This document shows, one piece after another, positions 31,677-47,295 of a stretch of 64,000 nt of DNA (its first letter is position 1; each line of letters starts with the position of its first letter). The notes beneath the pieces were generated by a model that saw nothing but the letters and a program-made list of their open reading frames with translations, did not search any database and had not been told where the DNA came from. A program made the position numbers and the translations under genes. Source of the stretch: a virus. The DNA is taken from IMG/VR virus record IMGVR_UViG_3300027969_000060, positions 32,001 to 96,000 of that record; one strand, 5' to 3'.

Positions 31677-32870
31677 TTAAGCGTTTTCAATCTGTACACG
31701 GTTACCAGATGCGGCTGCAAATGACCACTGAGCTGTTGTGCCATTGGCCACCAACCAGGTTGATTCATTATTTGTCCACTGTGTTAACAATGCTTTGTGC
31801 GCTGTTAGTTTAGTTACAAAATATGTGTTGCCATTGGCGTCAGTTGCTTTGATATAAGCTTCAAACGTTGCTGGAGTATCGTCGGCTACTAATTTACAAA
31901 CTGCTGTACCGTCAGTTGTTTTAACTTTGTAACGACGACCTGAAGTTTGTTTAATAATATCACCAACACGAACTGTAGCTTCAGCATCAATTTTAGCACG
32001 GATGATAATTGCATTTTCTTGATTAGTTGCTGAACCAACGTTGCCGCTGTCAGTTGTTAGAACTGCTGTAGCAACTGCGCCAGTGCCGCCACTGAATGTT
32101 ACTTGAGCGTCTACTGGACTAGTATAACCAGAACCTTTTTCTGTTACTGTAACACTTAGTAGACCCATTGTAATATCAGCTTTAGCACCTGTACCAGTTG
32201 CTGGGCTAATTGATGTTAGTGTACCTGCGGCACCTGTGCTTGGAAATGCTGTGTATGAACCAGCCACTGTTACTGTACCAAAAGAGTAAACACCCCATGT
32301 TAAGTTAAACGTGGCGCCGCTGCCGTCTGCGTCAATACCTGTGCCTTGAGCGGTTGTACCGCTGACCGGATTCGCTGGAACAGCGGCGTCTCTACGACCG
32401 TTTTGAGTAACTGTAAATGTTAAAATAGCGCCAGAACCGTCAACTGAGTCAACAGTAATGATTAACGACAATGGCCAACCTGCACCTTGCATTGTAATAG
32501 TGTTGCCAGCTTCATAATCAACACCGCCGGCAACTTTAGCTACGGTTACTGTGACAACTGACGCAACTGGAGCACGAGCTTTAGTTGTTTGTGTACCTGT
32601 GTATACTTCTAAGATATTGCCTACGTCATATCCTGTGCCGTTCGCTGTTGTGGCAAACGATAATGCTTTATATCGTGTAGTACCTGTAACTTGAACACCG
32701 CCTGGAATATCCGGTGCGGCAAGTGTAACTGTTGGCGCCGTAGTCCAACCTGATCCTGCGTTAGATACTGTGTAACTTGCTACACCTTCGCCGCCAATCT
32801 TATTGTCTGATGTGCCTGTGGTACCGATGTTGCGGTTACCAAAATATTTTTTATTCAAACTACGAGCCAT
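31677..32870 (-). CDS. Virion structural protein (possible head fibre/decoration; T/G/A-rich, 397 aa)
   Basis: Strong AAGGAG RBS, own late-promoter box, GSGY/GTGY beta repeats, C-terminal IIKQTSGRRYKV domain; near the capsid gene. Confidence 0.55.
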   Translation of the reverse strand: MARSLNKKYFGNRNIGTTGTSDNKIGGEGVASYTVSNAGSGWTTAPTVTLAAPDIPGGVQVTGTTRYKALSFATTANGTGYDVGNILEVYTGTQTTKARAPVASVVTVTVAKVAGGVDYEAGNTITMQGAGWPLSLIITVDSVDGSGAILTFTVTQNGRRDAAVPANPVSGTTAQGTGIDADGSGATFNLTWGVYSFGTVTVAGSYTAFPSTGAAGTLTSISPATGTGAKADITMGLLSVTVTEKGSGYTSPVDAQVTFSGGTGAVATAVLTTDSGNVGSATNQENAIIIRAKIDAEATVRVGDIIKQTSGRRYKVKTTDGTAVCKLVADDTPATFEAYIKATDANGNTYFVTKLTAHKALLTQWTNNESTWLVANGTTAQWSFAAASGNRVQIENA

Positions 32871-32958
32871 TTTATTTTCTCCTTAAGAAATCACGGCGTT
32901 CTAGGCCGTACGCGGTTGCTGTTCCGCATAAAACTTACCCTGTGTAAGTCATACAATG
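32871..32958 (-). ncRNA. Candidate structured 5' leader with three tandem hairpins
   Basis: GACUUAC/GUAAGUU (32932-32950), UGCGG/CCGCG (32911-32928) and ACGGC-CUAGAAC-GCCGU (32893-32909), between the ATAAATA box (32959-32965) and the RBS. Confidence 0.45.
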
Positions 32959-39335: not shown

Positions 39336-41705
39336 TTATCCTATAGTAAATCTATTATCAGCGGCTGATGCTAATTGATTATTTCCGCTCTGTGCAATTT
39401 GGTTTCCTTCTTGCAATAGTCCACCCATTCCTGCCACGCTAGTATTTAACTTTTCTAGTAGCCCTGCAAGCATATCTTGATTCGGTAAACCTGTTGGAAC
39501 AGCCGCTTCTTGTGTTGCCGGCGCTGGGCCTGTTTCTGTCTGGGCGGCCTTAGTACCTAATTCCGATGAAAGACCAGCAGTCATACCTTTAAGGCCGCCA
39601 AATAAACCGTCTGTGCTTGGCATTGACATGTTAGACAGCGGTTTAAACATATCTGTCATTCCGGAAGTAAGTGGTTTAAACATGTCCGGGCCAAACTTAC
39701 CAGCAACTCCTTCTAGAGTTTTACTAACATCGGGCATCTTAATATCACCCATCATCTTAGTAATATCTGGCATTTTACTAAAATCAGGCATCTTAATATC
39801 ACCCATCATCTTAGTAATATCTGGCATTTTACTAAAATCAGGCATCTTAATATCGCCAGTTTTGTTAATTCCAGTTTCACCAGGCATTCCGTCAATTAAT
39901 TTACCAACAACTGTATCTAGTTGATTTTGCATTCCGCCTGCGGCATCTTTTGGAGCTGTTGATTCTTTCTTTTTGCTAGAAGCACCGGACATTTTTGATT
40001 GTAGTGCTTCACCAATAGCAGTCCATTGCTTTTTATTAGAAACTACTTCTTCCCCGTCTAATTGCACCATCTCCCCATTAGGATCAAATTTTTCTAGGGC
40101 TTCCATCCAACCTTTAGGTACACCTTGTGTTTCTTGTTTTACATTTCCAAGTAAATCATCTAAACCTGGACTACCTCCTAAACGTACACGAGGCGTTGGT
40201 TTTTCTACCGGTGTTCTAACTTCTGTTGGAGTTGCTTCTTGTCCTGTTTTTGCGGCTTTGGCGCCTGGCATCATTAATACTGCTTTACTAAAGTTGTCTA
40301 CTGCACCTGAAAATTTCTCATAGCCTGCGGCCTGCAGTTTGTTAAAATTATTTCTAGCGGCAATATCAGCAGCCACAATATTTTGAAATGCTTCAGTTCC
40401 TGGTGCTTTTGCTCCGTCTGGTGTTCGACCTGAAGCATTTGCAGCCATTTGGCTTGCTTGAAAGTCTCTAACTGTTTGTACTGAGCCTGCTGTAGTAGGG
40501 CCTCGTTGTCCTAATTGCTGTGCGCCTGTTGATTGCAACTGTAAACGTGACAGTTCTTGTCCTGCAATTCTACGCATTGATTGGCCAACCGCATCATCAG
40601 TGTATTTTTGAGACTGTGCTTGCGCGGCAAATCCGCCTGGACCTTGCTGACGCATGTAAGCATCCATATTATTTTTAGCCAGTTGAAGTCGTTGTTCTCC
40701 TTCTTTTCTCTGTTCTTCTGTTTTAGCGTTTCTTAATGCTAATGCGGCTTCACCTAATGCAGTACCTGCAGGCCCAATAGCACTTAAATTATTGCCGGCT
40801 TTTTCAGTCACTACACCCATGGCAAATATTTCGTCAATAGAACCTTGAAGTTCACTTCCTAAATCCCCGGTGACATTTTTTAATGCTCTATACGAGTCAT
40901 TCAGTTCTTTGCCGCCGGACAACAATGCCAAATTCACATCCAAGTCTTCTGATCGAACTGCATTTTCTCTCATCAGCTGGTCTGTAGTTTTATTGGTAAC
41001 GGCAGCATTGTTTAACATTGCCATTGAAAATTCACCAACACTCTTAATAGCTTCTTTTCTTGATTTCTCATCTTGCAATCCAAGATTTTGACTTCTTATA
41101 AGAGCATTAGTAGCTATCTCATTGATCTGTTCAGGAACCATTCCCATACTTTCAAACATCTTGCCAGGTTTAGACTCTCTAAAATCTTTCTGGAATGCTA
41201 AAAGCTCTTTGGCTGCATCTACGTTATTAGATGCTAAACCAGTCATTGATCCCTGTACTTTTGCTAACTGCGTCTGGAAGTGTTGGACATTTCCTCCGCT
41301 TTCAGCTAGTTTCTTACCCCAGTCGGCAGTTTGACCTGCAGATAACATACCAGACCCAATCATCGCCTTTTGCATGTCTACGGTGCCCATGAAACTATTT
41401 TTCATGGCATCAAAACCAGACTGGACTCCTAGTACATTACCAGTCATCTTGCCTAATCCTGCGCTAACCCCTTCTAGTACTGATCCAACTGCACTACCAC
41501 CTTTTCCGGCACGTTCAAATCCTTTCACTACACTGTCAACAGCCCCGTTAACATCTTTGGCATTTGCTCCGGTTATGCTGGCGCCGCCACTACCCCCCGG
41601 ACTGCTGCCGCCAGGAGTGTTCCGTAGAGCGGAGGCAAATGTACTTGCTTGACCAGTAAGCAAATCTTTCATTTGATCGTAGGTAATTGGGTTGGCACCT
41701 GACAT
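39336..41705 (-). CDS. Probable tape measure protein (789 aa)
   Basis: Long A/G/Q/M-rich, apparently helical protein with internal tandem repeats; divergent from a gp26/gp51-like chaperone pair carrying a frameshift signal. Confidence 0.55.
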   Translation of the reverse strand: MSGANPITYDQMKDLLTGQASTFASALRNTPGGSSPGGSGGASITGANAKDVNGAVDSVVKGFERAGKGGSAVGSVLEGVSAGLGKMTGNVLGVQSGFDAMKNSFMGTVDMQKAMIGSGMLSAGQTADWGKKLAESGGNVQHFQTQLAKVQGSMTGLASNNVDAAKELLAFQKDFRESKPGKMFESMGMVPEQINEIATNALIRSQNLGLQDEKSRKEAIKSVGEFSMAMLNNAAVTNKTTDQLMRENAVRSEDLDVNLALLSGGKELNDSYRALKNVTGDLGSELQGSIDEIFAMGVVTEKAGNNLSAIGPAGTALGEAALALRNAKTEEQRKEGEQRLQLAKNNMDAYMRQQGPGGFAAQAQSQKYTDDAVGQSMRRIAGQELSRLQLQSTGAQQLGQRGPTTAGSVQTVRDFQASQMAANASGRTPDGAKAPGTEAFQNIVAADIAARNNFNKLQAAGYEKFSGAVDNFSKAVLMMPGAKAAKTGQEATPTEVRTPVEKPTPRVRLGGSPGLDDLLGNVKQETQGVPKGWMEALEKFDPNGEMVQLDGEEVVSNKKQWTAIGEALQSKMSGASSKKKESTAPKDAAGGMQNQLDTVVGKLIDGMPGETGINKTGDIKMPDFSKMPDITKMMGDIKMPDFSKMPDITKMMGDIKMPDVSKTLEGVAGKFGPDMFKPLTSGMTDMFKPLSNMSMPSTDGLFGGLKGMTAGLSSELGTKAAQTETGPAPATQEAAVPTGLPNQDMLAGLLEKLNTSVAGMGGLLQEGNQIAQSGNNQLASAADNRFTIG
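39733..39854. repeat. Perfect 54-bp tandem repeat (~2.3 copies) in the putative tape measure gene
   Basis: Unit GGCATCTTAATATCACCCATCATCTTAGTAATATCTGGCATTTTACTAAAATCA at 39733 and 39787, partial at 39841; encodes GDIKMPDFSKMPDITKMM. Confidence 0.95.
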
Positions 41706-42817: not shown

Positions 42818-43807
42818 TTACTTTGCCTTCTGTCTTTCTTTTTCCATATCCGCTAGCGTTCTTCCTGCTTGCGGTACGTTAGCAAATCGTGGATCAATTT
42901 TAAATTCAGCACGACCAGTAGGAGAAGTTACAATCTCAGGTCTTGCTGATATTGGTAGTTGTTTGTTAGCAGGCCCTTGACCAGCTGTTGGATTTGTTCC
43001 TTGGCTAGTTGAATCTTTAGCAGTTTGTCCTTGTGTGTCCGCGGCGGAGTCAGCATCTGCTTTTGCTGAATTATCTGGAGTTGCTGGGCTGTTATCTTTG
43101 ATGCCAAATATTTTCTTAAACTTATCTACAACTGCAATACCTGCATCACCTAATGTTTGGTCAATCATACAAGCGCCAATGATTTCTGCAACAGTATTTT
43201 TACCAGATTCTGTATTTAAATAGGCCATTAATCCAACGGTAGCGGCGCTGTCTAAGTTGCTTAATAGTTTACCTAGGTTAGCAACTGGTGCATATGGGAC
43301 TAGTCGCATACCTACAGTTAATTGTGTCCAACCTGTGGCTAACTTTAGTGTACCAAATAAAACTGTTGAGGCTGCAATCTGCCCAACGAGTGTTGCCATA
43401 CGCTGTTGACGGTACTGCTGATATTTCTCTGGGGTCCACTCGCCTTTTTCAACCATTGCAACAGCATCTTCCATGTCGTCCCAATAGTCATAGGCCATCT
43501 TACCTAGTCCTAAACCTTTTAACACTAATAGCAATCGACCAGTGGCCTTATTAAAGGTAGCAAATCCGTCCTTAGTTACTTTTCCACCTACATCTGCAAT
43601 CTTTCCTTTAGGAATTTTACCACCTTTACTTGCTGTAGCTACGGCATCATCTGCACGACCACTAGCACGTTGAGCTAATTTTAAAATACCTTTACCAACA
43701 GGTTCTAGTACTTTACCACCCGTTCTTCCAATTATATTCATAGCAGCCGGGATAATTCCCCCAAACTCTTTTAATTCACGTTCTGTTAGTAGGTCGTTAA
43801 TTCTCAT
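42818..43807 (-). CDS. Hypothetical late protein (329 aa), possibly an internal head/ejected protein
   Basis: GAGG RBS, ATAAATA box at 43827-43833, N-terminus MRINDLLTE, amphipathic/hydrophobic helices. Confidence 0.5.
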   Translation of the reverse strand: MRINDLLTERELKEFGGIIPAAMNIIGRTGGKVLEPVGKGILKLAQRASGRADDAVATASKGGKIPKGKIADVGGKVTKDGFATFNKATGRLLLVLKGLGLGKMAYDYWDDMEDAVAMVEKGEWTPEKYQQYRQQRMATLVGQIAASTVLFGTLKLATGWTQLTVGMRLVPYAPVANLGKLLSNLDSAATVGLMAYLNTESGKNTVAEIIGACMIDQTLGDAGIAVVDKFKKIFGIKDNSPATPDNSAKADADSAADTQGQTAKDSTSQGTNPTAGQGPANKQLPISARPEIVTSPTGRAEFKIDPRFANVPQAGRTLADMEKERQKAK

Positions 43808-43844
43808 TTGTATTTCCTCAGTAAGATATTTATCTACTACTTTA

Positions 43845-44307
43845 AGAAGAACTTGCGTTCTTCTGTTCTTCGCTAACGCTCGAACTTACTGTCTTTCTTT
43901 TAATTATATTATTAAACGCGAAGCGTTAAGATATTATCTAGATTGTTCAGTCACACTTAGCCCTTGCGGGCTAAAATTGAACATTATCTGAGTTGAGCAG
44001 TTCACTTAGTGTTTGCACTACAAGCATATTGCTAGCTTAGGCGGTCATCCGGTACCTAATCGTGCTGTCTTATATGACGGCGGGCCTCTACACATACACT
44101 AACACATGCAGAGCCGTGGGCTGTTAACCCTCTTTTAGCCTTGGAAATACACACTTACAAATCAAACCGGTTATAATTTAGGCATATCCGATCAACGTCC
44201 TGTAAAGGATAGTGATTTGCTACTCTACGCCAATTAGAGTTCCTTGCCGCCACACATCAGAGCGGATTTAGGGCACTATACTATCGCCGGTGCGGGCTTA
44301 TTTGGCG
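43845..44307 (-). ncRNA. Candidate large structured ncRNA (~460-480 nt), family not recognised
   Basis: Only long ORF-free stretch in the window; GC-richer than the flanks; more than 12 stems including two GCAA tetraloops and G-U pairs that favour the minus strand. Confidence 0.6.
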
Positions 44308-44751
44308 TTATTTTGCCTGGTTTTCTTGGAGTCGTTTAATATGCGAACCGTGTACACGTACTTGAATATGACCGTTATAATATTCATTTGATTCTAATAC
44401 TCTACGTGAAAATTGTTCGCGAGCCTCTATGTAACTACATTCTGCCTTGGATTTGCAGTAAAACAGTATTTCTCTTGTGAAGTTTTCTTTGCCTAGTGCG
44501 TCTATGTCTGTTTGAAGATTAGGACTGCTACCATAGTATTCCTGCCAGTCGCTGTCAATTTTACTTCTAATCTTCTTTTTTTTCTTAGTGCCGTTTTTAA
44601 GTTTTACAGTTTTATATGAGGTTTTAGAGAATTTAGCAAGTTTTTTGCCTATGTACATGCGCCCGTTAGTTATATTGGTGATGATATACACGAATCCTAT
44701 ACAGTCTTCGGGTAAAATTTCTACGGTTTGGGATTGATATAACCACGTCAT
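44308..44751 (-). CDS. GIY-YIG-like nuclease-family protein (147 aa)
   Basis: GFVYIITNITNGRMYIGKK...W.EYYGSS...F.REIL..C..K.E..Y.E...YYN. Confidence 0.8.
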   Translation of the reverse strand: MTWLYQSQTVEILPEDCIGFVYIITNITNGRMYIGKKLAKFSKTSYKTVKLKNGTKKKKKIRSKIDSDWQEYYGSSPNLQTDIDALGKENFTREILFYCKSKAECSYIEAREQFSRRVLESNEYYNGHIQVRVHGSHIKRLQENQAK

Positions 44752-44756
44752 GCAAG

Positions 44757-45020
44757 TTAGTTATCACTATCAGTTCCCTCCCGAGCTTCCTTTTGAGCCT
44801 TACGTTTTGCCTTTTGTTTTTCCCAGTCTACGTCTTTCCACTTGCGCCACTCTTGCACATGTATACGTCGAGCAGAGCATATCCTACGAATTTCACTCAT
44901 CCAGAACCGAACGTCCATCCCTGCACGTTTGGTACCTTCTGCTAGCCAACGTTGATTTGCCTTAAAGTATTCCTTAAAAGCATCCATTAGTTGTGAGTGT
45001 AATTCCTCGTCCTGGTGCAT
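44757..45020 (-). CDS. Hypothetical basic helical protein (87 aa)
   Basis: Start overlaps the upstream stop (TAATG); coherent ORF in the gp55-47-46 operon. Confidence 0.55.
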   Translation of the reverse strand: MHQDEELHSQLMDAFKEYFKANQRWLAEGTKRAGMDVRFWMSEIRRICSARRIHVQEWRKWKDVDWEKQKAKRKAQKEAREGTDSDN

Positions 45021-45520
45021 TATCCTACCTTATAGTACGCAACGCCATCTGTTGCATGTATTTTAATTGATTCTCTATGTCTAGGGAGCTCACTCATTCC
45101 TATGTTCAGTGGTAACATTAGATCAGTTTTATCTAATGAAAAATAAACTTTCTTACAGCCAAACGCCTGTGTTGATTCATGTACTACACGATGATGCGGA
45201 TGACCGTATTCACCTTCTTCATTGTGTGTTAATATTAAATCGTAGCCTATTGTTGCTCTACGCAGAGCCCTGATAGCATCAAACTTATCCCATGTGAGCA
45301 AACTATCCGTACCTAAATCCCTGCCGTGATCTTTGAATCCTAAAAACTCAGTATTAACACCACGCTGCCGCCAGTACCTAGCAATTTCACGACCACGCTT
45401 GTGCCAGCGCCAACAGGTTAGATACACAATGTTCCATTCGTATTCTGGATGTGCATCCATAAACGCACTGGCAAATATAACACAATCATCCGGATGAGCT
45501 ACTAAGGCAATTGCTTTCAC
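45020..45520 (-). CDS. PIG-L/LmbE-family deacetylase-like protein
   Basis: VAHPDD metal motif, VYLT, THNEEGEYGHPHH. Confidence 0.85.
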   Translation of the reverse strand: MKAIALVAHPDDCVIFASAFMDAHPEYEWNIVYLTCWRWHKRGREIARYWRQRGVNTEFLGFKDHGRDLGTDSLLTWDKFDAIRALRRATIGYDLILTHNEEGEYGHPHHRVVHESTQAFGCKKVYFSLDKTDLMLPLNIGMSELPRHRESIKIHATDGVAYYKVG

Positions 45521-47295
45521 TCTGTGACCTCAAGATCAGTAGCGTATGATGTAAAGCCATTTTCTTTAATAACTCTAAGTACATTGTTAACACGACCAAT
45601 TAGCTCGTCTTTGTGGCTGATTAAGAAAATATTTTTCTTACGTTCACGTCCCATCTTTTTAAGTACACTGAGCGCACTTTCAACACCGCTGGCATCTAAT
45701 CCGTTATCAATAAGCTCGTCAACAAATAACAAGTTAATGCTTTGATATAGGCTTTCCCATACATCGCGGAATGCCCATGATAATCCAAGAATAAGTCTAT
45801 TTCGTTCCCCTCGACTTAGATTATCAAAATCTAAATCTTGTCCTAGTTGGGTAATTTCAACAGTGAGATCGTTTTGGAATACAACAGTATGCGGTAGTCC
45901 CATGCGATCAAGATAATAGGTTAACCTATTATTAAGGTATGCTAGGTTTTGATCTATGATCTTCTTACGAATAAACGAGTCTTTTGAAGTTAGTAGCTTC
46001 AATAGAAACTCTTGGTGGTCTTTTAAGCTAGAAAGTTCATTAACACGATCCCATGTAATTTCTTGCATGGCGGTGTCTGTTAATTCATCGATCTGCTCTT
46101 GATACGGATCTGTTTCACCTGCCTTGATAGTCAGATTTGTTTCTAATGTTTTAAGATTATTTTGATGTTTAAGTGCTTGTTCAACAGTGTCATAATATGT
46201 TTCGGGCCGTCCACTAAGCTCACCGATAGCAATAATTTCTGTTGTAATTTTAGCTAGGTCAGCAACAACTTTATTGTGATACTGTTGTGATTCTGCAAGA
46301 TGCTTAGTAGCTTCGGCAGTCATTTCTTCATGTTTATGATCGTGAAGTTCTTGTTCACAAGCGTGACATTTTTTGTCCTGCAATTTAGCAAGCTCGCTAG
46401 AGTACTTTTTTACGCTTCGCTCCGCTTGTGCTGTCGCGCTATCTAACGTAGCTCTCTCCTTATTCAGGCTCTTTAGCTTGGCTGTCTTTTCATCAAACTC
46501 TTTAAGTTTAGCATGTTTAGCAAGCTCTGTATCAATGTCTACATTTTCTAATTCAATAATAGCACGACCAATTTTTTCAAGATCTTGATCGTGTTGATGG
46601 TTCCATGCATTTTGTCTTGTTAACAATGCATCAATACTTTGTTGTATTTTTTCATTAGCTTTTTTTGACGCTTCGATATTTGCACTTTCTTGTATAATAC
46701 TATCTTTAGTTTGTCGGATTAGTTCTTTAAGTGTTTCTGCTTTCTCACTGAGCAAGGTAATACCTAACAACTGTTCAATGATAGCACGTTGGTCCGCAGC
46801 CTTCATAGACAAAAACGGCTCAGTATAAGTGTTAAGTGCAACCACGTGCTTGAACATGTCGTGACTCATACCTAGCAAGTCATCTAAGTCCTTTTGTGTC
46901 TCACGCATATCGCCCTGAGCATCGTCGGTTTCTTCTGTTTCTTGTTCCTGATCGTTTACATAAAACTTCATAAGAGTAGGCTTGCGCCCACGCTCAACAC
47001 GATAGACAACGCCGTCTTTTTCAAAAGCTAGTGTAACCAACATATTTTTATTATTAATTTTGTTGATTAAATTATCTTTCTTAATATTAGTAAGTGCATT
47101 ACCAAACAGGGCAAAACTTAATGCATTTACAATGGTTGTTTTTCCCGTGCCATTTCTACTTCCGCTATCATCTCCGCCTTGGTCTAAGTTTTCCCCTAGC
47201 ACAAGTGTTAAGTTCTCTTTTGTAAAATCTACAGCTTGGGTTTGATTACCCACGCTCATAAAATTCTTAACAGTTAAATTTTTAATTTTAATCAT
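45517..47295 (-). CDS. gp46: Recombination endonuclease ATPase subunit (Rad50/SbcC-like)
   Basis: KNFMSVGN, Walker A NGTGKTT, zinc hook CHAC, signature LSRGE, Walker B LLFVDE, ISH. Confidence 0.95.
   Translation of the reverse strand: MIKIKNLTVKNFMSVGNQTQAVDFTKENLTLVLGENLDQGGDDSGSRNGTGKTTIVNALSFALFGNALTNIKKDNLINKINNKNMLVTLAFEKDGVVYRVERGRKPTLMKFYVNDQEQETEETDDAQGDMRETQKDLDDLLGMSHDMFKHVVALNTYTEPFLSMKAADQRAIIEQLLGITLLSEKAETLKELIRQTKDSIIQESANIEASKKANEKIQQSIDALLTRQNAWNHQHDQDLEKIGRAIIELENVDIDTELAKHAKLKEFDEKTAKLKSLNKERATLDSATAQAERSVKKYSSELAKLQDKKCHACEQELHDHKHEEMTAEATKHLAESQQYHNKVVADLAKITTEIIAIGELSGRPETYYDTVEQALKHQNNLKTLETNLTIKAGETDPYQEQIDELTDTAMQEITWDRVNELSSLKDHQEFLLKLLTSKDSFIRKKIIDQNLAYLNNRLTYYLDRMGLPHTVVFQNDLTVEITQLGQDLDFDNLSRGERNRLILGLSWAFRDVWESLYQSINLLFVDELIDNGLDASGVESALSVLKKMGRERKKNIFLISHKDELIGRVNNVLRVIKENGFTSYATDLEVTE

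What the first reader, a model, noticed from the sequence alone, without database searches (positions are those of the whole stretch)
43845..44751. Candidate ~480-nt ornate ncRNA directly behind a GIY-YIG-like gene: possible unrecognised RNA-protein system
Seen: this is the only long non-coding gap in a tightly packed genome, and it starts at the GIY-YIG-like stop codon. On the minus strand it folds almost end to end: GCAC/GUGC; CCGCU/GGCGG; ACUCUA/UAGAGU; a multi-way junction closed by GCAAAUCA/UGAUUUGU containing UCCU-UUAC-AGGA and GAUCGG/CCGGUU; GGGUU/AGCCC; ACGGC/GCCGU enclosing an 11-bp CUCUGCAUGUG/UAUGUGUAGAG stem with five G-U pairs; UUAGGU/GCCUAA with inner CGG-AUGA-CCG; UAGUG-CAAA-CACUA; UGUUCA/UGAACA enclosing UUAGCCC-GCAA-GGGCUAA (43957-43974); AGAAGAAC-GCAA-GUUCUUCU (43845-43864). 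The G-U pairs and GNRA loops argue for an RNA on the minus strand. Established: large phage-borne ncRNAs (GOLLD, ROOL) and nuclease-coupled RNAs (HEARO, OMEGA RNAs) exist, but I do not see tRNA, tmRNA, RNase P or group I/II intron hallmarks. Inference: the RNA is co-transcribed with the small, very basic (KKKKKIRSK) GIY-YIG-like protein and may form a ribonucleoprotein, or is a stand-alone ribozyme/structural RNA.
Basis: partly seen in the sequence, partly recalled or inferred. Interest (0 to 1): 0.88.

Follow-up and report, generated by a model that had tools for sequence, protein, structure and literature searches.

The report
Full-length Polynucleobacter-1 twin-box phage RNA
The gene-free 500 bases behind a small nuclease gene of this uncultured freshwater T4-like phage encode a real, doubly knotted non-coding RNA of about 455 bases whose first third is the catalogued orphan motif Polynucleobacter-1, and the evidence suggests it does not depend on that nuclease; its job is still unknown.

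Summary
Window 43808-44307 is the only long ORF-free gap, and it encodes a minus-strand structured RNA (about 43845-44298).

It is not wholly new. Rfam RF01718 (Polynucleobacter-1, 68.9 bits against a cut-off of 37) covers 44155-44298. The remaining ~310 nt match no Rfam family. They are conserved end to end in over 130 IMG/VR contigs, with strong covariation, two pseudoknots and two identical 7-nt boxes (AGAUAAU here).

The proposed RNA-protein system is only weakly supported.
- The SegE-type GIY-YIG gene stops within 120 nt upstream in 93 of 116 loci, but these phages share gene order.
- In six loci an unrelated PDDEXK nuclease fills the slot next to an unchanged RNA.
- In ten loci another gene is inserted between the two.
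- Bacterial island copies have no GIY-YIG and sit beside DUF6641 instead.
- Four cultured phages examined that carry the GIY-YIG homologue have no room or match for the RNA.
- Box letters do not co-vary with the protein.

Best reading: an RNA gene in its own right that presents one short word twice to an unknown partner.

This scan has reached the same reading for this family on other genomes. The PDDEXK replacement and the DUF6641 link do not appear in the earlier notes I retrieved.

The parts
43845..44298 (-). Full-length structured RNA (about 455 nt): Polynucleobacter-1 domain plus an uncatalogued 3' two-thirds
   Evidence: nhmmer matches span the whole gap in over 130 viral contigs. An 18-helix model has 85.6% of cells paired against 35-41% in slid controls, and 53 of 90 pairs carry compensatory changes.
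44155..44298 (-). 5' domain, a member of Rfam RF01718 (Polynucleobacter-1 RNA); helices P1-P6
   Evidence: cmscan 68.9 bits (gathering score 37), E 1.6e-12, model positions 1-141 of 141.
44086..44113 (-). P8 long hairpin (CUCUGCAUGU / AUGUGUAGAG); its loop supplies pseudoknot 1
   Evidence: 9 of 10 pairs show changes on both sides.
44097..44101 (-). Pseudoknot 1, 5' strand (UAGUG, in the P8 loop)
   Evidence: Pairs with 44007-44011. 5 of 5 pairs compensatory, 92.7% of cells paired.
44007..44011 (-). Pseudoknot 1, 3' strand (CACUA)
44015..44078 (-). H-type pseudoknot 2: P9 GUCAU(44078-74)/AUGAC(44048-44) crossed by GCAC(44065-62)/GUGC(44018-15) and UUAGG(44059-55)/CCUAA(44041-37)
   Evidence: P9 99.3% paired with 3 compensatory pairs. 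PK2a 97.2% paired with 3 compensatory pairs. The GG/CC of PK2b is invariant.
43983..43989 (-). Box 1 (AGAUAAU), preceded by A-CUC and followed by G
   Evidence: Identical to box 2 in all 79 relatives by a direct word search, with 10 different words among them (the one alignment-based mismatch there, L204, reads as a misalignment). Mutual information with the twin column is 0.9 bit and low with every other column.
43933..43939 (-). Box 2 (AGAUAAU), preceded by A-UCU and followed by A
43957..43974 (-). P10 hairpin UUAGCCC-GCAA-GGGCUAA between the two boxes
   Evidence: Conserved; the CC/GG core is nearly invariant, and the outer pairs shift register between subgroups.
43865..43885 (-). P12 module GUUC-GA-GC-GUUA-GC-GAA-GAAC: covarying outer stem, two G-A steps read by eye as tandem G.A, small GNNA-capped stem
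   Evidence: Outer and inner pairs covary. The GAGCG..GCGAA motif is also kept in bacterial copies and in a related RNA next to DUF6641.
43845..43864 (-). P13 terminal hairpin AGAAGAAC-GCAA-GUUCUUCU; probable 3' end
   Evidence: 6 of 8 pairs compensatory, 98% of cells paired. No canonical U-run terminator was found.
44308..44751 (-). 147-aa stand-alone GIY-YIG domain protein (SegE type) with no extra DNA-binding module
   Evidence: PF19835 E 1.4e-32 over residues 3-129; phrog_447; homologues in 508 cultured-phage records.
44757..45020 (-). 87-aa basic protein of no known family, syntenic upstream of the nuclease slot
   Evidence: No Pfam or PHROG match. Present in many related loci.
43813..43834 (-). 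T4 late-promoter-like GATAAATA (43834-43827) and Shine-Dalgarno GAGGAAA (43819-43813) of the next gene (ORF 42818-43807)
   Evidence: Read from the sequence. The match to the T4 late consensus TATAAATA is from my own knowledge. It implies that the downstream gene has its own start signals.

Best explanation
This is the full-length form of the Polynucleobacter-1 RNA, a non-coding RNA of about 455 nt transcribed from the minus strand.

Shown:
- It has a six-helix 5' domain (the Rfam part).
- A core is locked by two pseudoknots.
- Two short boxes carry the same 7-nt word.
- A conserved G.A-rich module and a closing hairpin end the RNA.

Inferred:
- The RNA is made by read-through from the gp46 / 87-aa / nuclease operon, or from a promoter inside it, and ends at the last hairpin.
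- It acts in trans as a rigid scaffold that presents the same short word twice to two copies, or the two halves, of one partner. That partner is a dimeric protein or a nucleic acid and is still unidentified.
- Its place behind the GIY-YIG gene reflects a conserved slot for a small DNA endonuclease next to the gp46 recombination nuclease. I read that slot as structure-specific or resolvase-like. It does not reflect a nuclease-RNA complex.
For: RNA reality:
- RF01718 hit.
- Conservation across the whole gap in over 130 contigs.
- 85.6% of cells paired against 35-41% in slid controls, covariation 0.318 against 0.10 or less, 0 of 500 shuffles as high.
- Both pseudoknots carry compensatory changes.
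- G-U cells exceed A-C cells 215 to 75.
- No conserved ORF; box spacing is not a multiple of 3.

Twin boxes:
- Identical in 79 of 79 relatives, with 10 different words.
- Mutual information is high only with the twin column.
- The rule also holds exactly in three bacterial copies from the genome searches and a fourth found beside a DUF6641 gene (AGCGAAA, GGCGAAA, AGCGAUG, AGCAAUG); a fifth differs at one letter.
- The flanking pair is C-G at box 1 and U-A at box 2.

Independence from GIY-YIG:
- PDDEXK_15 fills the slot directly upstream of the RNA in 6 loci, and in L013, the only one of them in the full-length alignment, the RNA spans the whole profile and is about 70% identical to RNAs from GIY-YIG loci.
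- Genes of 257-356 aa are inserted in 10 loci.
- Bacterial copies have no GIY-YIG.
- Cyanophage P-HM1, S-SRM01, phiN3 and Melnitz carry the protein but have no room or no match for the RNA.
- Box columns show no unusual coupling to any GIY-YIG column.

Not a leader: in many loci the next gene is on the opposite strand. Here the next gene has its own late-type promoter and Shine-Dalgarno site.
Against: - No transcript ends, strand or abundance were measured. Only contigs from RNA libraries were available, and they may contain DNA.
- No independent promoter or canonical terminator was found.
- 80% adjacency to GIY-YIG, plus replacement by another small nuclease rather than by an arbitrary gene, is also what a nuclease-linked RNA would show.
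- The partner of the boxes was not found. There is no enrichment of complementary sites in the flanks or in two whole phage genomes.
- The two-base-pair mini-stem around each box is too short to count as shown.
Confidence: 0.6

Rival explanations
1. Nuclease-RNA system. The RNA is the 3' part of the nuclease transcript and binds, guides, activates or restrains whichever small nuclease is encoded just upstream (GIY-YIG, or PDDEXK in some phages).
For: - Same strand, with the GIY-YIG stop within 120 nt in 93 of 116 loci.
- The slot is filled by a second, unrelated small nuclease in 6 loci.
- The 147-aa protein has only the catalytic domain and a basic stretch.
- A 1960-nt contig from an RNA library bridges the RNA's 5' part, the GIY-YIG gene, the 87-aa gene and gp46 (weak evidence).
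Against: - Two unrelated folds are unlikely to read the same RNA, and the RNA keeps its full length and typical similarity in the one PDDEXK locus with a complete RNA alignment, L013.
- Genes are inserted between the two in 10 loci.
- Bacterial copies lack any such nuclease directly upstream.
- The protein family occurs in 508 cultured-phage records; the five examined have no RNA match or no room for it.
- No co-variation between box letters and protein columns.
- Adjacency is confounded by shared gene order.
Confidence: 0.13
2. Cis-acting element of a messenger RNA: a 3'-UTR stabiliser or processing platform for the upstream operon, or a leader or riboswitch for the downstream gene (Weinberg 2010 scored the motif as possibly cis-regulatory).
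For: - Begins right after a stop codon.
- No promoter of its own was detected.
- Weinberg's table marks it 'y' for cis-regulatory.
- In the window, CUCAG of box 1 could pair with CUGAG at the next gene's Shine-Dalgarno site (read; not conserved in relatives).
Against: - The downstream gene varies or lies on the opposite strand.
- The upstream gene varies between GIY-YIG, PDDEXK, RNase H and unknown ORFs.
- In bacteria the RNA is transcribed divergently from its neighbour.
- Two pseudoknots and 455 nt are far more than a stabiliser needs.
Confidence: 0.1
3. Catalytic RNA: a self-cleaving or self-processing ribozyme, or a remnant of an intron, with the twin boxes as cleavage or ligation sites.
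For: Size, pseudoknots and invariant single-stranded blocks are in the range of ribozymes. Two identical sites could be processing sites.
Against: No Rfam ribozyme or intron model matches, even at E up to 1. No exons, because flanking genes are intact and end or start outside the RNA. Nothing here tests catalysis.
Confidence: 0.06
4. DNA-level element: a replication origin, or a recombination site whose two direct repeats are kept identical by recombination rather than by RNA function.
For: - Identity (not complementarity) of two direct repeats is typical of DNA sites.
- It lies at the junction of the recombination and structural modules.
- One bacterial copy lies one gene away from a tyrosine integrase.
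Against: - Dozens of compensatory base-pair changes and the G-U over A-C excess point to a folded single strand of one polarity.
- No inverted arms lie around the boxes (read).
- A 50-bp spacing is too short for excision.
Confidence: 0.05

Closest known systems
Polynucleobacter-1 RNA motif (Rfam RF01718; Weinberg et al. 2010, Genome Biol 11:R31, PMC2864571)
   Same: Window 44155-44298(-) matches all 141 model positions at 68.9 bits. The habitat is the same (fresh water, a Polynucleobacter-type bacterium). The RNA again lies downstream of one recurrent gene family, as the 2010 supplement noted.
   Different: - The Rfam model covers only the first third. The 2010 authors noted that its own 3' half was not always detected, and they found no instance in purified phage.
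- Here the conserved RNA runs about 310 nt further, with two pseudoknots, twin boxes and a terminal module that match no Rfam family.
- It is carried by over 130 viral contigs.
GOLLD and ROOL large ornate RNAs
   Same: Large, multi-pseudoknotted orphan RNAs that are often phage- or prophage-borne and have unknown function.
   Different: No Rfam family other than RF01718 matches the gap. This RNA is shorter, and nothing here tests self-assembly. The resemblance is in kind only.
HEARO/OMEGA RNAs of IscB and TnpB, and IS110 bridge RNAs (nuclease- or recombinase-coupled RNAs; my own knowledge)
   Same: A structured RNA next to a small DNA-acting enzyme. Short fast-changing words could in principle be guide-like.
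   Different: - Co-occurrence with one enzyme family is not obligate.
- The enzymes here (GIY-YIG, PDDEXK) are not known RNA-guided folds.
- The variable words are internal, duplicated and only 7 nt long.
- No matching target was found.
Lambda boxB / N-peptide type hairpins (GNRA-like pentaloops; my own knowledge, a lead only)
   Same: Most box words have the form r-GNNRA-n (GAUAA, GAUGA, GCGAA, GUGAA), with a flanking Watson-Crick pair.
   Different: The stem would be only 2 bp. 24% of the closing pairs are purine-purine, and some words break the pattern. No arginine-rich reader was identified. Not tested.

Membership tests
Rfam RF01718 Polynucleobacter-1 | Covariance-model score at or above the curated gathering score (37 bits) over the full model | tested here: met
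   68.9 bits, E 1.6e-12, model positions 1-141 of 141, not truncated.
Rfam RF01718 Polynucleobacter-1 | The model's helices are kept with compensatory changes in relatives | tested here: met
   P1, P2, P4 and P6 show pairs changed on both sides. P6 is 100% paired.
Rfam RF01718 Polynucleobacter-1 | Context noted in 2010: downstream of GOS11034 genes with possible homology to P-SSM2 PSSM2_218 | tested here: inconclusive
   The upstream GIY-YIG protein has homologues in 329 Synechococcus and 22 Prochlorococcus phage records. I did not look at the P-SSM2 locus itself.
   No family other than RF01718 matched the gap at E up to 1 among the 4227 families of Rfam 15. I did not check separately which of these named families that library holds.
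tRNA, tmRNA, RNase P RNA, group I / II introns, known small ribozymes | Detection by ARAGORN or by the Rfam models | tested here: not met
   ARAGORN found 0 genes in the window. cmscan found nothing but RF01718 in the gap.
Nuclease-coupled guide RNA (OMEGA-like) | Obligate co-occurrence of the RNA with one nuclease family | tested here: not met
   10 of 116 loci lack GIY-YIG, 10 have a gene inserted, bacterial copies lack it, and five cultured phages examined that carry the protein show no RNA match or no room for it.
Nuclease-coupled guide RNA (OMEGA-like) | A variable guide segment with matching targets | tested here: inconclusive
   The boxes vary (10 words), but complementary sites are not enriched over control words in the flanks or in two whole genomes. 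A 7-nt word gives little power.
SegE-type GIY-YIG endonuclease (Pfam PF19835), for the neighbouring protein | Full-length match to the domain model above its cut-off | tested here: met
   112.9 bits (cut-off 25), residues 3-129 on profile positions 1-123 of 123. There is no additional domain, and no solved-structure relative by sequence.

The most novel reading that the evidence does not exclude
The RNA is a bivalent, programmable reader. Its two identical loop words recognise a co-evolving nucleic-acid or dimeric partner. It works together with whichever small DNA endonuclease occupies the upstream slot (GIY-YIG or PDDEXK in phages) or with DUF6641 in bacterial islands. That would be an RNA-directed or RNA-gated DNA-processing system unlike CRISPR, OMEGA or bridge RNAs.
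Probability: 0.08. Interest if true: 0.9.

Novelty: new variant of a known kind. Interest (0 to 1): 0.6.

Why it matters
Polynucleobacter-1 has sat in Rfam since 2010 as a 141-nt orphan. This locus and its relatives show it is the front third of a much larger, doubly knotted RNA carried by freshwater T4-like phage contigs, some of them over 300 kb, and by small bacterial islands.

The two boxes stay identical while their letters change. That constraint is not explained by any base pairing found within the RNA, so it points to an undescribed mode of recognition.

Three results here narrow the search for function:
- The RNA keeps its full length and typical similarity where an unrelated nuclease replaces GIY-YIG.
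- The GIY-YIG protein does not track the box letters.
- All five bacterial copies sit beside a DUF6641 gene.

Weinberg et al. 2010 report the motif in the named strain Polynucleobacter sp. QLW-P1DMWA-1. To my knowledge that strain is culturable, so an experimental entry point may exist.

Tried and rejected
- **Single-sequence folding energy** does not separate the strands or stand out from shuffles.
- **BLASTN** of the locus against 50,697 cultured-phage records found no match.
- **Genome-collection pattern scan.** Scanning 185,579 genomes for the D1 core word returned 120 chance matches, and none carried the element.
- **A mini-ORF running from box 1 to box 2** (AUG ... UAA in the window) is rejected. 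Box spacing is 48-59 nt and spread over all three classes modulo 3.
- **A target complementary to the boxes:**
  - In 3-kb flanks, the excess is confined to the AT-rich word and is not convincing.
  - In the phage's own 109-kb record, hit numbers are at chance level.
  - In two whole records (109 kb and 345 kb), the own word lies inside the range of control words. The best perfect 11-13-nt sites fall in unrelated coding genes.
- **A partner column inside the RNA** was not found.
- **Co-variation of box letters with GIY-YIG residues** was not found. Near-identical protein pairs were too few to test directly.
- **Promoter and terminator scan** gave nothing above shuffles.
- **Metatranscriptomes.** Four freshwater RNA-library runs hold small shares. 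Only contigs could be laid, and they cover the RNA, GIY-YIG and gp46 alike. They cannot show strand, ends or level, and may be DNA carry-over.
RF01718 and my narrow model R1 found nothing credible in Atu_ph07, GAP32, 121Q, Melnitz or V45v66. The one weak 121Q hit (15 bits) is an ordinary promoter gap without boxes. R1 was built from one clade, so this is not evidence of absence.
- **DUF6641 in six phage records** was not found.
- **freshwater-2 RNA in the same window** as the box reader: it has no complementary word.
- **PDB sequence search with the GIY-YIG protein** gave no significant relative.
Full report
**Where we are.** The window is bases 32001-96000 of a 108,991-bp IMG/VR virus record that CheckV estimates to be 30% complete. 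It has T4-type genes. On the minus strand these are:
- a gp46-like recombination nuclease subunit (45517-47295);
- a PIG-L family gene;
- an 87-aa basic ORF;
- a 147-aa ORF (44308-44751) that matches Pfam SegE_GIY-YIG over its full length.

Then comes the gap, followed by a 329-aa ORF of no known family. A T4 baseplate-family gene lies on the other strand.

**The observation.** 43808-44307 is the only stretch longer than 155 nt in the 64 kb without an ORF of 60 aa or more in any frame. Folding energy alone says little: z is -1.9 on the minus strand and -2.8 on the plus strand. Comparative data settle the question.

**It is partly known.** Rfam 15 places RF01718, Polynucleobacter-1 RNA, at 44155-44298 on the minus strand. 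The score is 68.9 bits against a gathering score of 37, and all 141 model positions are matched. Nothing else in Rfam matches the gap, even at E up to 1, and ARAGORN finds no tRNA or tmRNA. The only paper in the library that names the motif is Weinberg et al. 2010. Its table lists the motif as a probable RNA, possibly cis-regulatory, from Burkholderiales and fresh water or estuary samples. Its supplement says most examples lie downstream of one gene family with possible homology to a cyanophage P-SSM2 gene. [quoted passage not shown]

**It is much longer than the catalogued motif.**
- A scan of IMG/VR for a conserved word of the 5' domain, followed by nhmmer with the 503-nt gap, gave 57 contigs. 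In many the match runs from position 2 to about 490.
- A second scan with a word from the middle of the RNA gave about 80 more. Around 25 of these match only the 3' half, yet still have about 200 nt between the nuclease stop and that half, which indicates a diverged 5' domain.

**Structure.** I aligned 28 sequences (A1) and 79 non-redundant ones, searched for covarying column stacks, and tested an 18-helix model.

| Measure | Model | Controls |
|---|---|---|
| Cells forming standard pairs | 85.6% | 35-41% when the 3' partners are slid |
| Pairs with changes on both sides | 53 of 90 | 19-26 |
| Covariation score | 0.318 | 0.10 or less |
| Shuffles reaching the observed values | 0 of 500 | |

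Two pseudoknots are well supported.
- The loop of the long hairpin (44101-44097) pairs with 44011-44007, and 5 of 5 pairs are compensatory.
- GUCAU/AUGAC (44078-74 / 44048-44) is crossed by GCAC/GUGC (44065-62 / 44018-15) and UUAGG/CCUAA (44059-55 / 44041-37).

G-U cells outnumber A-C cells 215 to 75, so the folded strand is the minus strand.

**Twin boxes.** (The name comes from earlier notes of this scan.)
- Two segments 50 nt apart in the window, CAACUC-AGAUAAU-G (box 43989-43983) and CAAUCU-AGAUAAU-A (box 43939-43933), carry the same 7-nt word.
- The two words are identical in all 79 relatives by a direct word search, although ten different words occur. The one alignment-based mismatch (L004-series locus L204) reads as a misalignment.
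- Two positions further upstream also change in step.
- Mutual information is about 0.9 bit between twin columns and low with every other column of the RNA. The constraint is therefore identity, not pairing within the RNA.
- The nucleotides flanking each box differ between the two sites in a complementary way: C...G around box 1 (94%) and U...A around box 2 (86%). The first and last box letters can pair in 76% of sequences. A two-base-pair stem capping a GNNRA-like pentaloop is therefore possible, but it is an inference.
- Box spacing is not a multiple of three, so no mini-ORF links the boxes.

**Is it tied to the GIY-YIG gene?**

Upstream context in the 116 loci with at least 700 nt of upstream sequence:

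| Upstream context | Loci |
|---|---|
| GIY-YIG stop within 120 nt, same strand | 93 |
| GIY-YIG stop 120-400 nt away | 3 |
| Gene of 257-356 aa inserted between the two | 10 |
| No GIY-YIG | 10 |

All these contigs share the order gp46 / small ORF / nuclease / RNA / baseplate, so adjacency alone is weak evidence.

- Of the ten loci without GIY-YIG, six have a 168-188-aa PDDEXK_15 endonuclease (PF24608; PHROG label RusA-like resolvase) ending just before the RNA. Two more have that gene followed by RNase H.
- The RNA next to a PDDEXK gene in L013, the only such locus in the full-length alignment, spans the whole profile and is about 70% identical to RNAs from GIY-YIG loci.
- tblastn finds the GIY-YIG protein family in 508 cultured-phage records. 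In Melnitz, Variovorax V45v66 and phiN3 there is no match to the RNA. In phiN3, P-HM1 and S-SRM01 there is no room for it.
- Box letters show no unusual coupling to any GIY-YIG alignment column. Box position 1 ranks 245th of 256 variable RNA columns.

I read the slot as the place of a small DNA endonuclease that belongs with gp46. That it is structure-specific is my inference from the resolvase-like PHROG label and my own knowledge of GIY-YIG enzymes. It is filled by either of two folds, with the RNA as its neighbour.

**Bacterial copies.**
- RF01718 hit 3 of 151 sampled genomes above its cut-off, and one more weakly. All four hits are in small genomes of 1.7-1.9 Mb in the order used for the search. 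It hit only 1 of 33 genomes in that family, so the RNA is sporadic.
- The copies are full length and obey the twin-box rule with other words: AGCGAAA, GGCGAAA, AGCGAUG.
- None has a GIY-YIG gene nearby.
- One lies in an island with an SNF2-Mrr fusion, a 224-aa unknown protein and a tyrosine integrase.
- In all five bacterial loci with context, a DUF6641 gene (PF20346) is transcribed divergently just upstream of the RNA.
- The reverse does not hold. Only about 5-7 of 24 DUF6641 loci show the RNA or a related RNA that shares the GAGCG..GCGAA terminal module.
- Six phage records, one of them 99% complete, have no DUF6641.

**Expression.** Four freshwater metatranscriptome runs hold parts of the stretch. 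Only their contigs could be laid, and these cover the RNA, GIY-YIG and gp46 regions of related phages. One 1960-nt contig bridges the RNA's 5' part and the upstream genes. This is compatible with co-transcription, but it shows neither strand nor ends, and DNA carry-over cannot be excluded. No promoter or terminator beyond chance lies in or around the gap. The next gene has a T4 late-promoter-like GATAAATA and its own Shine-Dalgarno site (the late-promoter consensus is from my own knowledge).

**What reads the boxes?** I found no answer.
- Sites complementary to the boxes are not enriched over control words in 3-kb flanks, in this record, or in the two whole records analysed (this one and a 345-kb, 99%-complete relative).
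- The best perfect sites fall inside unrelated coding genes.

**Literature and earlier notes.** A 2023 survey of structured RNAs in IMG/VR and a 2026 preprint on coevolutionary mining do not mention this RNA. Earlier follow-ups of this scan on other genomes reached the same core reading: extended Polynucleobacter-1, pseudoknots, twin boxes, function unknown. One note said relatives exist in culturable E. coli, Cronobacter and Agrobacterium phages. I could not reproduce this with RF01718 or with a narrow model of the box region, which does not disprove it.

**Verdict.** The RNA is real (about 95%). It is a member of RF01718 at its 5' end and an uncatalogued extension beyond. The most likely mechanism is a stand-alone or operon-derived stable RNA that shows one short word twice to an unknown partner.

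Noticed in passing
window 32868-32949 (-): A second orphan Rfam motif, freshwater-2 RNA (RF02980, 72.4 bits against a cut-off of 49.9). It sits in the 96-nt leader of the 397-aa ORF 31677-32870(-), just after a CATAAATA late-promoter-like word. It contains no word complementary to the twin boxes.
   Followed up: partly
L013:3963-4484(+), L226:8819-9385(+), L158:3893-4423(-), L189:9348-9854(+), L036, L059: In relatives without the GIY-YIG gene, a 168-188-aa PDDEXK_15 endonuclease (PF24608; PHROG label RusA-like resolvase) fills exactly the same slot between the small basic ORF and the RNA. This is a non-homologous replacement of one small nuclease by another.
   Followed up: partly
L356:8873-9340(+), L357:1466-1966(+), L358:8839-9273(+), L381, L378: In bacterial genomes every copy of the RNA (5 of 5) has a DUF6641 gene (PF20346) transcribed divergently just upstream. 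DUF6641 is multi-copy (up to 4 per genome), and most copies lack the RNA. None of the earlier notes I retrieved mention this link.
   Followed up: partly
L369:2400-2790(+), L384:650-1300(-): Next to two other DUF6641 genes lies a different-looking structured region. It shares only the terminal GAGCG..GCGAA module plus closing hairpin with the twin-box RNA, so it may be a sister RNA family.
   Followed up: no
window 45020-45520 (-): A PIG-L / LmbE-type deacetylase gene lies between gp46 and the 87-aa ORF. In many relatives gp46 abuts the small ORF directly, and one RNA-library contig skips exactly this gene (45023 to 45539). It is therefore a variable insertion.
   Followed up: no
window 39336-41705 (-): A 789-aa protein with a run of near-identical short repeats (MPDFSKMPDITKMMGDIK, three copies) near its C-terminal third. 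It may be a tape-measure-like or other structural protein. No search was run on it.
   Followed up: no
L146:749-1168(-), L148:11144-11554(-): In L146 an RNase H gene (PF00075, E 2e-44) lies between the PDDEXK gene and the RNA. L148 has a 136-aa ORF in the matching position that I did not scan.
   Followed up: no
L204:6354-8303(+) and L204:8380-8879(+): One viral contig carries a full-length copy of the RNA (box word AGUUGAA) outside the usual gene order, directly behind a 649-aa protein with an amidoligase-like domain. No gp46, GIY-YIG or baseplate gene lies nearby.
   Followed up: no
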